Positions 31,201 through 38,833 of a DNA stretch of 64,000 bases are shown here, piece by piece; the first letter of the stretch is position 1, and each line of letters opens with the position of its first letter. The translations under genes were made by a program, and so were the position numbers. The stretch lies in NCBI RefSeq assembly GCF_009914755.1, contig NC_060929.1. One strand, given 5' to 3'. The notes under the pieces were generated by a model. The model searched no databases. It had not been told where the DNA came from and saw only the letters and a list, made by a program, of their open reading frames with translations. The DNA comes from the human T2T-CHM13v2.0 reference genome, Homo sapiens.

Positions 31201-31755
31201 CCAGAGGTGGAGTCTACAGAGGCAGGCAGGCCTCCCTGAGATGCGGTGGGCTCCACCCAGTTCGAGCTTCCTGGCCGCTTTGTTTACCTAAGCAAGCCTA
31301 GGCAATGGCAGGTGCCCCTCCCCTAGCTTCGCTGCTGCCTTGCAGTTTGATCTCAGACTGCTGTGCTAGCAATGAGCGAGGCTCCATGGGGGTAGGACCC
31401 TTTGAGCCAGGTGTGGGATATAATCTCCTGGTGTGCCCTTTGCTAAGACCATTGGAAAAGTGCAGTATTATGGTGGGAGTGACCCGATTTTCCAGGTGCC
31501 GTCTGTCACCCCTTTCTTTGACTAGGAAAGGGAATTCCCTGACCCCTTGCGCTTCCCAGGTGAGGCGATGCCTGGCCGTGCTTCAGCTCACGCTCAGTGT
31601 GCTGCACCAAGTGTCCTGCACCCAGTTTCTGACACTCCCCAGTGAGATGAACCCGGCACCTCAGTTGGAAATGCAGAAATCAGCCGTCTTCTGCGTCACT
31701 TATGCTGGGAGCTGTAGACTGGAGCTGTTCCTATTTGGCCATCTTGGCTCCACCC
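25226..31755 (-). mobile_element. Full-length LINE-1 (L1PA), antisense in a DDX4 intron, retrotranspositionally dead
   Basis: 5' UTR with YY1 site CAAGATGGCC; ORF1 fragments (29720-30371); EN fragment (29006-29656); 740-aa RT-containing ORF (26153-28375); TSD CTGATTAAGCTTATTTTC at 25208-25225 and 31756-31773. Confidence 0.98.
26153..28375 (-). pseudogene. L1 ORF2 fragment (reverse transcriptase region, FADD motif), cut off from the EN domain by frameshifts
   Basis: ORF track 740 aa containing RQGCPLSP and LFADDM. Confidence 0.96.
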
Positions 31756-31763
31756 CTGATTAA
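31305..31763 (+). other. L1 ORF0 in the antisense 5' UTR, open for 152 codons
   Basis: MAGAPPLASLLPCSLISDCCASN... matches the primate L1 ORF0 N-terminus; donors at 31410, 31495 and 31559. Confidence 0.85.
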
Positions 31764-32344
31764 GCTTATTTTCAAAGAAGAAACCTGATTTATGAAAATG
31801 AGCAGATATAATTTTTCATATCAAGAATATAAAGTAAATAGATTTAGCAGTATAATTATGAAATCATTGTTTTTACCTCTCAGACCTCTTTAGAGGATCT
31901 TGGAGACTCTGGGAAAGACTTACTTTGTCATAAAGTGTCAGTTTGTTCCAGAACATTGAAAAAGCACAATGAAAGACAAAATGGGAACTGAGTTCACCTG
32001 TAGATGTAGAATAGGGTCCAGACATTTATATTTTTACAGAATGCCATGTGTAAGTCTGATGTACATCCCTAGTGAAGAACCACTGAAGAAGATGTTAGAT
32101 TCAAGTTAGGAAAGAGGTAAGGTTAGAGACGTTTTAAAAAGTGAAATTATGACTGGCAACACTGTACTATTGCATCAGGCAGCATACCTTCAAGACTTTG
32201 ATAAATATAGGGAAACTCTATAGAATTACTTTATAGAATTTTGAGCAGTGTTTCTCCTGAGGGTAAAAGTATACTTTGGATGGTGAGAGAACTTACAAAT
32301 CATGAGGGACTCCCGTAAAGCATACACACACACACACAAAAAAT

Positions 32345-32870
32345 AGAGGCCGAGTATCACTTATCCAAAATACTTGAGACCAGAAGTGCTTCATATTTTT
32401 TTTTTCTTTTTTTGGAGACAGAGTTTCGCTCTTGTCGCCCAGGCTAGAGTGTGACTGCGTGATCTTGGCTCACTGCAGCCTCTGTCTCCTGGGTTCAAGC
32501 GATTCTCCTCCCTCAGCCTCCCCAGTAGCTGGGATTTCAGGCACCTGCCATCACGCCTGGCTAATTTTTGTATTTTTAGTAGAGATGGGGTTTCACCACA
32601 TTGGCCAGGCTGGTCTAGAACTCCTGACCTCAGGTGATCCGCCCGCCTTGGCCTCCCAAAGTGCTGGAATTACAGGTATGAGCCACCATGCCTAGCCATG
32701 TTTCGGATTTTTTTTAATTAACTTTTGGAATATTTGCAGTACGTTTATCACTTGATCATCCCTAATCCAAAACTCTGAAATGCTCCAGTGAGCATTTCCT
32801 TTGAGCATCATGTCAGTACTCAAAGAGTTTGGGATTTTGGATTTTCAAATTAGGAATGCTCAACGTGTAT
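32345..32870. mobile_element. Tigger4/MER46-like element interrupted by an antisense Alu (32396-32697)
   Basis: GAGTATCACTTATCCAAAA ... GGAATGCTCAAC termini. Confidence 0.75.
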
Positions 32871-34572
32871 TAACATTTTATCTATTCTCTTTAATCTTGG
32901 AAAAGTGTAGTCTTTTCTGGTTTGACAACTCTTACCATACAACTCTTAAATAGTAATACATCTAAAAAAAATAATTTCTAGAATCCCTTCCTTTATAATG
33001 AAATAATAAACCTTTGTGCTTTTCCTGGGGCTCTCTCTGAGAAATCTCAAAAGTTTTCTGGGTGAATTTCTTCTTCTAAATTTTTAATTTGATCTTAAAA
33101 AGACAAAAGGAGTTGTCAGAGGAGAGTTGAATATTTGATTAGTGTAGGATTCGTGGGTATCAGAAAAACTATTTGGTTATCAATTTAATTGAAGTGACAA
33201 AACATTTAGAAGTAAACATAGAAAGTGACATGGTTGTAAATAACCACAGCTCTTTCATAAATAGGGAACCTTTTCTCTTTAGTCTTTTTTTCTTCTTTTT
33301 TTCCCTTCTTTAGTCTTTTTTTTTTTTTAAACAGACCTAATAAAGTCAACAGAATCTCTGCTGTCTAGGCTGATTACAAGGAAGGTAAAGAATAACTTTT
33401 TATCCAGTGTAATGGCTCTGAGGAAAAAAAACTCTCATAAGCGAAAGCATTAAACAGTAAATTAAGAAAGTAATTCCATACAAACTGAGTGACCTTTGCT
33501 AGAATATTAACACCTTTTATAGCTTATTTTAACCCAAGTGTTTTAAATCAAAGCAGATAAAATTCAGTTTCCAAGTTTTATCTTTCATTGTGCTTTTTCA
33601 GTTTTCTGGAACAAACTGACATTTTAGGACAAAATGTGTCTCCCCCAGGTTCTCTAAGATCCCCTAATTGGGTCTGCAAGGTAAAAATAATTTTCATGAT
33701 TATACTAAGAATTATTTATTTTAATATGCAAATATTGTTCAAATAAAGATTATCTTGGTGTTAATTTTTAATATGGTAAATATCAAAACACACAAGAAAA
33801 ACTCCAGGATTGTCAGTGTTTTATGAGTTTAAAGGTAACACTGACCAAAATGTTTGAAAGCCACTAAACTACTTTTTTTCCTTGAAGCAAAAGCAATTAC
33901 AGTTTTTATTTCTGTCACTGTTATTCCTAGTGTAGTTGCAACCACTTATGTTAATTATATCTTTTAATCATAGTAACTTCTATTTCATAAAGGAAATTGG
34001 GAGCAGGGAGATGGGAAACTGGGAGATGTCATACACAAGCATTGTCTACTGTTTTCAGTTACCTGAAGATTTTGGAAATTATCTTCAAGATGATGTTTTT
34101 CAAAACATAAATACTGTTGAATAAATGACTAAATTTAGTTGAACACAGATTTCCGTTTTCATACTCTTAAACATCATGAAGGAATAATACTAGCTTATTT
34201 GGCTAGTAAACCTCTATACATTAGGAAAAACAAACCCAAGTAGAGTAAGTGTATTAAGCTTTACACTGATAATAGGGAGAAGATGTTTTGGTTTTTTTTA
34301 AACTAAAGGTATTAGTCTCATTTACCAAAGATTTCACTTAATTATGTAAACTTGGATTCTTAAAATGATTCTGATTCTTGTAATACGTTTTTTCAAAAGT
34401 TTAATATAGTTTAAAGTATATTTTTCAAAAGTGCAAGTTCAATTTCTTTACTTTCTGAGATTTTAGGAATATTTACCTTGATAACATTTCTCTTTTATTC
34501 ATCTTTATAAACAAATTTGAATAGAATTCCTTTAAGAGACTTTGTAATTTAATGTGTTAATACTTCCGTAGG

Positions 34573-34898
34573 GGCCGGGCGCGGTGGTTCACGCCTGTAA
34601 TCCCAGCACTTTGGGAGGCCGAGGCGGGCGGATCACGAGGTTAGGAGATTGAGACCATCCTGGCTAACACGGTGAAACCCCGTCTCTACTAAAAATACAA
34701 AAAAAAATTAGCTGGGTGTGGTGGCAGGTGCCTGTAGTCCCAGCTACTCAGGAGGCTGAGGCAGGAGAATGGCGTGAACCCGGGAGGCGGAGGTTGCAGT
34801 GAGCCGAGATTGTGCCACTGCACTCCAGCAAGCCGAGATTGCGCCACTGCACTCCAGCCTGGGCAACAGAGCGAGACTGCGTCTCAAAAAAAAAAAAA
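34573..34898 (+). mobile_element. AluY with an internal tandem duplication
   Basis: CpG-rich; GAGACCATCCTGGCTAACACGG and GAATGGCGTGAACCCGGG diagnostics. Confidence 0.95.
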
Positions 34899-37193: not shown

Positions 37194-37464
37194 TGATCGG
37201 GAACAGAGAGAGCGGGAGCAAGCTCTTGGAGATTTTCGCTTTGGAAAGTGCCCAGTTCTTGTTGCTACTTCAGTAGCTGCCAGAGGGCTGGATATTGAAA
37301 ATGTGCAACATGTTATCAATTTTGATCTTCCTTCTACCATTGATGAATATGTTCATCGAATTGGGCGTACTGGTCGTTGTGGGAATACTGGCAGAGCAAT
37401 TTCCTTTTTTGATCTTGAATCGGATAACCATTTAGCACAGCCTCTAGTAAAAGTATTGACAGAT
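37194..37464 (+). CDS. DDX4: DDX4 exon (probably 20), 271 bp, motifs V and VI
   Basis: tcaag|T...GAT|gtaagt; [11 protein letters not shown]...ARGLD...[11 protein letters not shown]...LTD. Confidence 0.98.
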
Positions 37465-37605
37465 GTAAGTTAAACTTTTATGATGGAATGGATAGTTTTC
37501 TTACTTTGTTGTTGAAAGTAGACATTTTATGCATGTGTATATAACAAGTAAACTTTTCCAATATTTAATACTTTATGTTGCATATGAAGTCAATTTTTTT
37601 TAAAG

Positions 37606-37716
37606 GCTCAACAGGATGTTCCTGCATGGTTGGAAGAAATTGCCTTTAGTACATACATTCCTGGCTTCAGTGGTAGTACAAGAGGAAACGTGTTTGCATC
37701 AGTTGATACCAGAAAG
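37606..37716 (+). CDS. DDX4: DDX4 exon (probably 21), 111 bp
   Basis: taaag|GCT...AAG|gttagt; AQQDVPAWLEE...VDTRK. Confidence 0.97.
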
Positions 37717-38755
37717 GTTAGTAGAAAGGAAAACTTGAGAACTTGTCTTCTAGTTACTCTTTGTAAATGTTGTGCTTAATATTGTGAAGTAACTATAATA
37801 TTTAATAATCAAGCCATTGTTTTCGTGCCTGGAAGGTAGCTACTTTATTATTTCATTAACATTTTATGTATATACATATTTTTGGTTTTAAAGGTCAGGA
37901 ATTAACTTTGAGATTTATGCCTAAACAGTCTCCTTTCCCAGATTTTAAATTTTAATTTGGAATCTTTTAAACTTCTGATGGAATTATTTAATTTTTGAAT
38001 TCTGACAACATTAATTAATATAAAATACAGGACCTGTTGGGGTTACAAGTCTTTTCTTTTTCTTTTCTTTTTTTTTTTTTTTGAGATAGTGTCTGGCTCT
38101 GTTGTCCAGGCTGGAGTGCAGTGGCATGATCTTGGCTCACTGCAACCTCCGCCTCCCAGGTTCAAACAATTCTCATGCCTCAGCCTCCAGTGTATCTGGG
38201 ATTACAGGCATGTGCCACCATCTTAGCTGGTTTTTTTTTTTTTTTTTTTTGTATTTTTAATAGAGACAGGGTTTCACCATGTTGGCCAGGCTGGTCTCAA
38301 ACTCCTGGCCTCAAGTGATCCACCTGCTTCAACCTCCCAAAGTGCTGAGATTACAGGCGTGAGCCACTGCGCCCAGCCACGAGGCTACAAGTCTTTTCTG
38401 GTATGTCAGGTTTTTATAGGCTGAACACCGCCTTTATTCAGAAACAATGAGCATGTTAATTAAATATTTATGCTGATTCATTGAGTGTAGTGCATTAAGT
38501 TTTCCCCACTTGTCAAAACTATTGACTTAAAAAATATTTTTCTTGAAACATTTTGTGCAATTTAGATTTCCTCATTTGACAGGAGCCTTTTTTCAGGTGA
38601 ATCAGATTTAGTGAGAATAAAGTTCTTTGATTATTTGGGGAAGACATGGTAGATACTTTGAGTCCTTGCTCTCAGTCTGAGTGATGTAACTTTAAAGCTG
38701 TCATAAAATTAAATGTTTGTTTGTTTCTTTTTTTTTTTTTTTAAATAATTACCAG

Positions 38756-38833
38756 GGCAAGAGCACTTTGAACACAGCTGGGTTTTCTTCTTCACAAGCT
38801 CCCAATCCAGTAGATGATGAGTCATGGGATTAA
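38756..38833 (+). CDS. DDX4: DDX4 terminal coding exon, through the TAA stop
   Basis: accag|GGC; GKSTLNTAGFSSSQAPNPVDDESWD*, the Vasa-type acidic/Trp C-terminus. Confidence 0.98.
   Translation, partial: GKSTLNTAGFSSSQAPNPVDDESWD

What the first reader, a model, noticed from the sequence alone, without database searches (positions are those of the whole stretch)
31305..38833. L1 ORF0 splice donor is in frame with the DDX4 C-terminal helicase domain: candidate ORF0::DDX4 fusion
Seen: the intronic L1 is antisense, so its antisense promoter would fire in the DDX4 direction. ORF0 is open from ATG 31305. Donor CCAG|GTGTGG at 31410 falls after 106 nt (phase 1), and the next DDX4 exon (35966) starts in phase 1. 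Splicing would give MAGAPP...[13 protein letters not shown]...DESWD, about 221 aa, containing only the RecA2 domain and the acidic tail. Donors at 31495 (phase 2) and 31559 (phase 0) match the exons at 37194 and 37606. Established: L1 antisense promoters and ORF0 donors produce chimeric transcripts with host exons, and DDX4 acts in piRNA-based L1 silencing. Inference: L1 de-repression could produce a truncated VASA (a feedback or dominant-negative link) and could be detected by C-terminal DDX4 antibodies outside germ cells. A frame match alone has a 1-in-3 chance.
Basis: partly seen in the sequence, partly recalled or inferred. Interest (0 to 1): 0.8.

Follow-up and report, generated by a model that had tools for sequence, protein, structure and literature searches.

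The report
Intronic L1 ORF0 facing DDX4 exons
An old, dead L1 retrotransposon inside a DDX4 intron keeps its small antisense gene (ORF0) and splice donors, and one donor is in frame with the next DDX4 exon, but this layout is expected by chance and nothing shows that such a fusion is ever made.

Summary
The sequence observation holds. A full-length L1PA3 on the minus strand (25624-31755) has a true ORF0 homologue with its ATG at 31305. It has donors ending at 31410, 31495 and 31559, in phases 1, 2 and 0. Splicing 31410 to the exon at 35966 gives an open 221-codon frame of about 24 kDa.

The frame match carries no weight. The three donors cover all three phases, so any downstream exon matches one of them.

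- The only donor in frame with the next exon (31410) scores in the middle of DDX4's own donors.
- The strongest donor (31559) gives a premature stop.
- The product would not hold a whole RecA2 domain. It lacks the first strand and helix, which the upstream exon encodes.

No evidence of expression was found. DDX4 is absent from the held supplements of five L1 or TE chimera studies, and no RefSeq exon lies in the L1. DDX4 does rise after DNMT1 knockout in neural progenitors, but only at gene level, alongside DAZL and MAEL.

Verdict: a real but ordinary ORF0 locus and an untested member of a known kind (ORF0-exon fusions). Interest is low. Junction reads in testis or demethylated cells would decide it.

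The parts
25208..25225 (.). left copy of the 18-bp target-site duplication
   Evidence: The exact 18-mer CTGATTAAGCTTATTTTC occurs at 25208-25225 and at 31756-31773.
25226..25623 (-). poly(A) tail (read as poly-T on +) plus an extra L1 3'-end fragment of about 370-400 bp, lying inside the duplication and downstream of the main element
   Evidence: 25255-25623 aligns to 25626-26001 at 338 of 369 ungapped columns, 91.6%. Sequence read.
25624..31755 (-). full-length L1PA3, coding-dead
   Evidence: Relatives' alignments end at 31756. A RepeatMasker row in Pinson 2022 Table S1 reads chr5:55099158-55105291, minus strand, L1PA3, 4.4% divergence, repeat positions 2-6149. Its length of 6133 matches 25624-31756. 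ORF1 and ORF2 are split into stop-to-stop pieces of 794, 221, 148, 142 and 124 aa.
30859..30983 (-). segment of about 125 bp in the 5'UTR that younger L1s lack
   Evidence: All 12 of 12 sampled young copies align as two blocks that skip query positions 160-284.
31305..31763 (+). ORF0 homologue, 152 codons in this copy
   Evidence: The ATG is kept in 25 of 29 relatives and 12 of 12 young copies. No Pfam match.
31408..31416 (+). donor SD1, CAG|GTGTGG, exon end 31410, phase 1. It is the only donor in frame with exon 35966.
   Evidence: The same 9-mer is found in 8 of 12 young copies. GT is present here in only 11 of 29 close relatives.
31493..31501 (+). donor SD2, CAG|GTGCCG, exon end 31495, phase 2, weak
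   Evidence: CAG|GT is kept in 26 of 29 relatives and 11 of 12 young copies.
31557..31565 (+). donor SD3, CAG|GTGAGG, exon end 31559, phase 0, the strongest of the three
   Evidence: GGTGAGG is kept in 28 of 29 relatives.
31756..31773 (.). right copy of the target-site duplication
20719..20864 (+). DDX4 exon that encodes the end of RecA1, the linker, and the first strand and helix of RecA2. It would be absent from the proposed fusion.
   Evidence: Its translation aligns to Drosophila Vasa chain 2db3_A positions 253-297, E 1.3e-12.
35966..36065 (+). DDX4 exon, the acceptor of the proposed junction. It needs 1 upstream nt.
   Evidence: It covers Pfam Helicase_C profile positions 16-46 of 110.
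37194..37464 (+). DDX4 exon, the rest of Helicase_C
   Evidence: Profile positions 49-110 of 110, E 2.7e-23.
37606..37716 (+). DDX4 exon, phase 0
38756..38833 (+). last coding part of DDX4, the acidic tail and stop

Best explanation
A roughly 6.1-kb L1PA3 inserted in antisense into the 15-kb DDX4 intron between the exons at 20864 and 35966. It is now coding-dead and has lost about half of the CpGs in its 5'UTR. Like most L1PA1-8 copies, it carries the antisense ORF0 with its ATG and three GT donors. Those donors lie in phases 1, 2 and 0, so one of them must be in frame with whichever coding exon follows. Here that donor is SD1 (31410). The in-frame ORF0::DDX4 arrangement is therefore a by-product of an ordinary intronic L1, not a selected or demonstrated gene product. 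Most likely the locus makes no meaningful amount of the 24-kDa fusion. If the antisense promoter fires at all, most transcripts would start at or after the ORF0 ATG, or use the stronger out-of-frame donor SD3, and would end in premature stops.

Shown: the anatomy, the frames, the homology and the donor ranking.
Inferred: silence or low output, and non-productivity.
For: - Anatomy and frames.
- True ORF0: the ATG lies about 452 nt from the L1 end. Garza 2023 places the ORF0 start codon at nt 451 (passages). In 8 of 12 young copies ORF0 is 71 aa with the same SD1 9-mer, and ATG-to-SD1 is 106 nt in 10 of 12.
- No sign of selection: 24 of 29 close relatives are also open through codon 36, and ATG-to-SD1 is 106 nt in 29 of 29.
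- Donor ranking by a rough PWM and by U1 duplex energy: SD3 10.98 and -11.6, SD1 8.0 and -7.1, SD2 3.76 and -6.8. SD1 beats 7 of the 14 annotated DDX4 donors.
- SD3 or SD2 spliced to exon 35966 stops after 145 or 65 codons, 299 or 475 nt before the last junction.
- Among annotated antisense L1 start sites in Jonsson 2019 Supplementary Data 2 (part 1 of 2 read), only 19 of 58 lie upstream of the ORF0 ATG and 33 of 58 lie more than 12 nt inside it.
- Base rate: about 3200 genic ORF0 loci and 57 observed exon fusions (Criscione 2016 passages citing Denli 2015).
- DDX4 is absent from the held supplements of five studies: Criscione 2016 (10 files), Jonsson 2019 Data 2, Pinson 2022 (3 files), a long-read CAGE study (1 file) and a 2026 TE-chimera atlas that includes testis and GTEx (2 files, one of them cut).
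Against: - The element is an L1PA3. That is one of the three subfamilies (L1HS, L1PA2, L1PA3) that Jonsson 2019 found activated after DNMT1 loss (passages).
- DDX4 itself rises in that experiment, from 0.32 to 26 normalised counts, log2FC 1.46, padj 3.9e-7. Exon-level data that could assign the reads to the canonical promoter or to the L1 were not available.
- Pinson 2022 reports that about 17% of L1PA1-7 copies with a 5'UTR make chimeric transcripts, and that antisense-promoter activity follows host-gene activity (passages). DDX4 is highly active in germ cells, a tissue poorly covered by the catalogues I could search.
- SD1 here is identical to the young-L1 SD1, the ATG context is strong, and the acceptor at 35966 is a constitutive one.
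- The list of 57 fusions in Denli 2015 could not be read.
Confidence: 0.72

Rival explanations
1. The L1PA3 antisense promoter is active where DDX4 chromatin is open (germ cells) or where DNA methylation is lost. Some transcripts then start upstream of 31305, use SD1 and splice to exon 35966. This gives an mRNA that is translated into the 24-kDa ORF0::DDX4 C-terminal protein.
For: The ATG is intact and well placed, SD1 is identical to that of young L1s, and the frame is open. The subfamily is one that responds to demethylation. DDX4 reads rise in DNMT1-knockout cells. Antisense-promoter activity is coupled to host-locus activity. Older L1PA4 and L1PA6 copies serve as annotated start sites for other genes.
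Against: No catalogue or annotation lists it. SD1 is weaker than SD3. Only about a third of annotated antisense L1 starts include the ORF0 ATG. The product lacks Helicase_C profile positions 1-15 and the RecA2 first strand and helix, so it may not fold. DAZL and MAEL top the same DNMT1-knockout list, so demethylation of DDX4's own promoter explains the rise without the L1.
Confidence: 0.1
2. The antisense promoter does fire, but it yields non-productive RNA. Transcripts either start at or after the ORF0 ATG, or use SD3 or SD2 out of frame, or end at intronic poly(A) signals. The result is noncoding or NMD-prone L1-DDX4 chimeras that carry only the 3' exons.
For: SD3 is the best donor, and GGTGAGG is kept in 28 of 29 relatives. 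SD3 and SD2 products stop 299 and 475 nt before the last junction. In annotated cases 33 of 58 starts lie inside ORF0. Six AATAAA or ATTAAA hexamers and 10 crude acceptor-like sites lie between the L1 and exon 35966.
Against: There is the same lack of any listed DDX4 chimera. The crude splice and poly(A) scans have no calibrated error rate.
Confidence: 0.15

Closest known systems
L1 ORF0 and ORF0-exon fusion proteins (Denli et al. 2015, Cell 163:583; known to me only through passages in Criscione 2016, Hancks & Kazazian 2016, Jonsson 2019 and a 2026 review)
   Same: It is an antisense ORF in the 5'UTR of a primate L1PA element. The ATG lies about 452 nt from the L1 5' end in a strong context. 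Two donors sit inside the region that forms the 71-aa ORF0 in young copies. The orientation allows splicing into downstream host exons.
   Different: In this copy ORF0 runs for 152 codons and leaves the L1, because it has one base more after SD2 than the young copies. No transcript or peptide is known for this locus. Whether DDX4 is among the 57 reported fusions could not be checked.
L1 antisense-promoter chimeric transcripts used as alternative gene promoters (for example MET, UVRAG, CHRM3 and TBCK in Jonsson 2019 Supplementary Data 2)
   Same: A full-length L1 lies antisense in an intron with its 5'UTR pointing at downstream exons.
   Different: Those cases have annotated GENCODE start sites inside the L1. 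DDX4 has none in that table and none in the hub's RefSeq rows.
DEAD-box helicase Vasa/DDX4 C-terminal RecA2 domain (Drosophila Vasa 2DB3, Pfam Helicase_C PF00271)
   Same: The last four DDX4 coding exons carry Helicase_C profile positions 16-110 and the acidic tail.
   Different: The proposed product starts three residues before the strand I take to be motif IV (recalled). It lacks the part of the domain that exon 20719-20864 encodes.

Membership tests
L1 ORF0 (primate L1PA1-8 antisense ORF) | Lies on the antisense strand of the 5'UTR of an L1PA1-8 element | tested here: met
   The L1 5' end is at 31755/31756 on the minus strand. The RepeatMasker class is L1PA3.
L1 ORF0 (primate L1PA1-8 antisense ORF) | Start codon near L1 nt 452 in a strong Kozak context | tested here: met
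   31756 - 31305 + 1 = 452. The context is GCAATGG. Garza 2023 places the middle base of the ORF0 start codon at nt 451.
L1 ORF0 (primate L1PA1-8 antisense ORF) | ORF of 70-71 aa ending inside the 5'UTR | tested here: not met
   This copy has 152 codons, whereas 8 of 12 young copies have 71. Of the 29 close relatives, 11 are open for 150 codons or more and one more is open to the end of the extract. The long form therefore looks typical of this older group.
L1 ORF0 (primate L1PA1-8 antisense ORF) | Two splice donors inside the ORF | tested here: met
   CAG|GT at 31410 and 31495 sits at the same alignment columns as in young copies. That these are the published SD1 and SD2 is my inference, because the primary paper was not held.
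L1 ORF0 (primate L1PA1-8 antisense ORF) | Transcribed from the antisense promoter and translated | not testable with these tools
   No expression data could be reached.
ORF0-host exon fusion | Donor in ORF0 in frame with a downstream coding exon | tested here: met
   31410 (phase 1) joined to 35966 (needs 1 nt) gives 221 aa.
ORF0-host exon fusion | Observed junction reads, ribosome footprints or peptide | not testable with these tools
   DDX4 is absent from the held supplements of five chimera studies. The tables of Denli 2015 are not held.
Complete DEAD-box RecA2 / Helicase_C domain in the product | Covers the whole domain | tested here: not met
   Only profile positions 16-110 of 110 are encoded downstream of the junction. 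The upstream exon aligns to the Vasa segment that precedes it.
L1PA3 subfamily, older form | RepeatMasker assignment, and retention of the 5'UTR segment that younger L1s lack | tested here: met
   Pinson 2022 Table S1 row. A segment of about 125 bp is present here and absent in 12 of 12 young copies. Its identity with the published 129-bp ZNF93 site is recalled, not tested.

The most novel reading that the evidence does not exclude
In germ cells, or in somatic or tumour cells that lose DNA methylation, this L1PA3's antisense promoter drives an ORF0::DDX4 mRNA (31410->35966). It is translated into a 24-kDa protein that carries the DDX4 C-terminal epitope. This would couple L1 de-repression directly to a truncated piRNA-pathway helicase. 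It could also explain C-terminal DDX4 antibody signals outside germ cells.
Probability: 0.04. Interest if true: 0.7.

Novelty: new member of a known kind. Interest (0 to 1): 0.22.

Why it matters
If the fusion were real, it would link a retrotransposon promoter to the gene of a helicase that silences retrotransposons. It would also add a caveat to work that relies on C-terminal DDX4 antibodies. As it stands, the locus shows how easily an in-frame ORF0-exon layout arises. With donors in all three phases, every antisense intronic L1 that has an open ORF0 offers one such layout. A frame match alone should not be scored as evidence.

Tried and rejected
- Primary sources not held: Denli 2015, Speek 2001 and Matlik 2006. 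The published SD1 and SD2 positions and the list of 57 fusions therefore could not be read.
- One paper search failed on a term that was too short and was re-run.
- A Pfam call failed on a frame slip and was corrected.
- Cruickshanks 2013 passages gave no donor positions.
- A broad search for truncated DDX4 isoforms returned nothing relevant in its 15 listed titles.
- A crude scan for competing acceptors and poly(A) hexamers between the L1 and exon 35966 found 10 and 6. The native DDX4 pre-mRNA ignores all of them, so I give this little weight.
- A copy-specific upstream ATG at 31241 opens a 16-codon uORF. The site reads CTG in 28 of 29 relatives and 12 of 12 young copies. It probably lies upstream of the usual start sites, so I did not count it against translation.
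- No structure or complex prediction was run, because the spliced product is not a contiguous window sequence.
- I considered that this copy's long 152-codon ORF0 might be special. I rejected this because the same long form is common among its relatives.
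Full report
**What is in the sequence.** On the + strand an ATG at 31305 opens a 152-codon frame that ends at 31763. Three GT donors lie in it:

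| Donor | Exon end | Context | nt from ATG | Phase |
|---|---|---|---|---|
| SD1 | 31410 | CAG\|GTGTGG | 106 | 1 |
| SD2 | 31495 | CAG\|GTGCCG | 191 | 2 |
| SD3 | 31559 | CAG\|GTGAGG | 255 | 0 |

Counting back from the DDX4 stop, the exon at 35966 needs one upstream base, the exon at 37194 needs two, and those at 37606 and 38756 need none. Joining 31305-31410 to the last four coding exons gives 666 nt. That is 221 residues, 24.0 kDa, pI 4.96, ending in the acidic tail ...DDESWD.

**The element.**
- The window's own assembly could be searched. A 511-base query across the region found 5787 candidate places, of which 40 were scored. The best non-self matches were 90-92% identical, and their alignments all stop at window 31756.
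- An exact 18-bp direct repeat at 25208-25225 and 31756-31773 brackets the insertion.
- Pinson et al. 2022 (PMC9396940, Table S1, passages from a supplement search) list chr5:55099158-55105291, minus strand, L1PA3, 4.4% divergence, repeat positions 2-6149. Its length of 6133 equals 25624-31756. Its position is within 12 bp of where I expected the element from DDX4's hg19 coordinates, which I recalled rather than looked up.
- A three-point estimate from pairwise distances gives 4.7% divergence on this copy's own branch in the 5'UTR, in line with that row.
- The copy keeps a segment of about 125 bp (30859-30983) that all 12 of 12 sampled young L1s lack. I recall that a 129-bp ZNF93-bound segment was lost in the younger lineage, but I did not test that identity.
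- ORF1 and ORF2 are broken into pieces, the longest 794 aa.
- The 557-nt 5' part holds 14 CpGs, against a median of 30.5 in young copies.

**Is it a real ORF0?** Yes.
- The ATG lies 452 nt from the L1 end. Garza et al. 2023 (passages) place the middle base of the ORF0 start codon at nt 451.
- I sampled 12 young copies from the 868 genome places that match a 19-base primer core from PMC7746726. Eight have a 71-codon ORF0. Eight carry exactly the same SD1 9-mer as the window. ATG-to-SD1 is 106 nt in 10 of 12 and SD2 is at 191 nt in 8 of 12.
- The first 35 residues are 23-29 of 35 identical to the window's.
- The window copy has one more base just after SD2, so the young copies' stop is out of frame and the ORF runs out of the element.
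- This long form is not special. Of the 29 close relatives, 11 are open for at least 150 codons and one more is open to the end of the extract.
- ORF0 has no Pfam match.
- Reviews state that ORF0 contains two donors (passages). That these are 31410 and 31495 is my inference from position, because Denli 2015 is not held.

**How much does the frame match mean?** Very little.
- The three donors sit in phases 1, 2 and 0, so any coding exon downstream is in frame with one of them. Only the pairing of SD1 with the next exon carries the 1-in-3 chance.
Spliced to the next exon, SD2 and SD3 stop after 65 and 145 codons, 475 and 299 nt before the last junction. I would expect such transcripts to be subject to nonsense-mediated decay.
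- There is no sign of preservation. 24 of 29 relatives are also open through codon 36 and 25 of 29 keep the ATG.
- SD1 is unusual among this copy's nearest relatives. GT is present at that site in 11 of 29 and CAG|GT in 6 of 29. The commonest forms look like CpG-bearing states (CAGGCGCGG and its decay products), so this copy's GT probably arose by CpG decay. Only 4 of 29 relatives combine the ATG, an open frame and CAG|GT at SD1.

| Donor | PWM score | U1 duplex energy |
|---|---|---|
| SD3 | 10.98 | -11.6 |
| SD1 | 8.0 | -7.1 |
| SD2 | 3.76 | -6.8 |

SD3 beats 13 of the 14 annotated DDX4 donors in the window and SD1 beats 7 of 14. On the whole + strand of the window, 43 GT sites score at least as high as SD1. 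These scores rank the sites only. They are not calibrated.

**Where would transcription start?** In Jonsson et al. 2019 Supplementary Data 2 (GENCODE v25 start sites that overlap L1; part 1 of 2 read) I took the 58 distinct rows for L1HS-L1PA6 elements antisense to the gene. I dropped rows for older subfamilies, same-strand rows and duplicates. Measured from the L1 5' end, 19 of 58 starts lie more than 452 nt in, which is upstream of the ORF0 ATG. Six lie at 440-452 and 33 lie below 440. Annotated 5' ends can be incomplete. Even so, only about a third of known cases could include the ORF0 start.

**What the product would be.**
- The exon at 35966 covers Helicase_C profile positions 16-46 of 110 and the exon at 37194 covers 49-110.
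- The upstream exon 20719-20864 would be missing. It aligns to Drosophila Vasa chain 2db3_A positions 253-297, E 1.3e-12.
- From recalled DEAD-box architecture, that segment holds the last RecA1 strand, the linker, and the first strand and helix of RecA2.
- The product is therefore a clipped RecA2 plus the tail, not a whole domain. Its folding is doubtful.

**Evidence of expression.** I found none.
- The hub's RefSeq rows give no extra DDX4 exon in the window.
- DDX4 does not occur in the held supplements of Criscione 2016 (10 files; 988 EST-based antisense transcripts).
- It does not occur in Jonsson 2019 Data 2.
- It does not occur in Pinson 2022 (3 files), where the element is listed only in the inventory table.
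- It does not occur in a long-read CAGE study (1 file whose content I did not inspect).
- It does not occur in a 2026 TE-chimera atlas that includes testis, ovary and GTEx. That search covered 2 files, one of them cut when stored. The GTEx table uses gene names.
- Searches for DDX4 with ORF0 (13 papers), with 'L1 antisense promoter' and 'chimeric' (2 papers) and with 'L1PA' and 'chimeric transcript' (3 papers) listed no paper on such a fusion. This is judged from titles and abstract starts only. PDF supplements and subscription papers were not searchable.

- L1PA3 is one of the three subfamilies that Jonsson 2019 found activated after DNMT1 loss, while older L1s stayed silent (passages).
- DDX4 rises in that experiment from 0.32 to 26 normalised counts, log2FC 1.46, padj 3.9e-7.
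- DAZL and MAEL head the same list. Demethylation of germline-gene promoters explains a DDX4 rise without the L1, and the data are gene-level only.
- Pinson 2022 reports that about 17% of L1PA1-7 copies with a 5'UTR make chimeric transcripts in brain and glioma, and that antisense activity follows host-locus activity (passages). This makes germ cells the place to look.

**Verdict.** The anatomy is real and correctly read. About 3200 genic ORF0 loci and 57 observed fusions are reported (Criscione 2016 citing Denli 2015).

| Reading | Probability |
|---|---|
| Passenger L1 with no meaningful fusion protein | about 0.72 |
| Antisense output that is non-productive | about 0.15 |
| A real translated in-frame fusion | about 0.10 |
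| Full feedback or dominant-negative scenario | about 0.04 |

Noticed in passing
window 25208-25623 and 31756-31773: The 18-bp target-site duplication encloses the full-length L1PA3 and also a second L1 3'-end fragment of about 370-400 bp with its own poly(A), downstream of the main element. The fragment is 91.6% identical to the main element's own 3' end. This looks like a 3' transduction of a neighbouring L1 tail from the source locus, or a tandem 3' end. The RefSeq 'silencer' at 25335-25518 lies inside this fragment.
   Followed up: partly
window 31305-31763; loci L002-L030: In this older L1 group ORF0 has no stop inside the element. 11 of 29 relatives are open for 150-169 codons and read out of the L1 5' end into flanking DNA. 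The young copies instead have a 71-codon ORF0, because they have one base fewer just after SD2.
   Followed up: partly
window 31408-31416; loci L002-L042: The SD1 donor is CAG|GTGTGG in 8 of 12 young L1s. In the close relatives of this copy the site is mostly CpG-bearing (CAGGCGCGG-like) and has GT in only 11 of 29. The donor may therefore have been gained along the L1 lineage and, separately, by CpG decay in single old copies.
   Followed up: partly
window 31241-31291: A copy-specific upstream ATG opens a 16-codon uORF that ends 14 nt before the ORF0 ATG. The site reads CTG in 28 of 29 relatives and 12 of 12 young copies.
   Followed up: partly
window 32369-32741: A masked repeat begins with a poly-T run on the + strand, and 32443 has the acceptor-like site gtttcgctcttgtcgcccag. 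I read it as an antisense Alu with the kind of site known for Alu exonisation. It lies between the L1 and the next DDX4 exon.
   Followed up: no
window 35966-36065: The DDX4 reading frame has a Met five residues into this exon. It is the only in-frame Met in the last 185 residues. A transcript lacking the ORF0 ATG could in principle start there.
   Followed up: no
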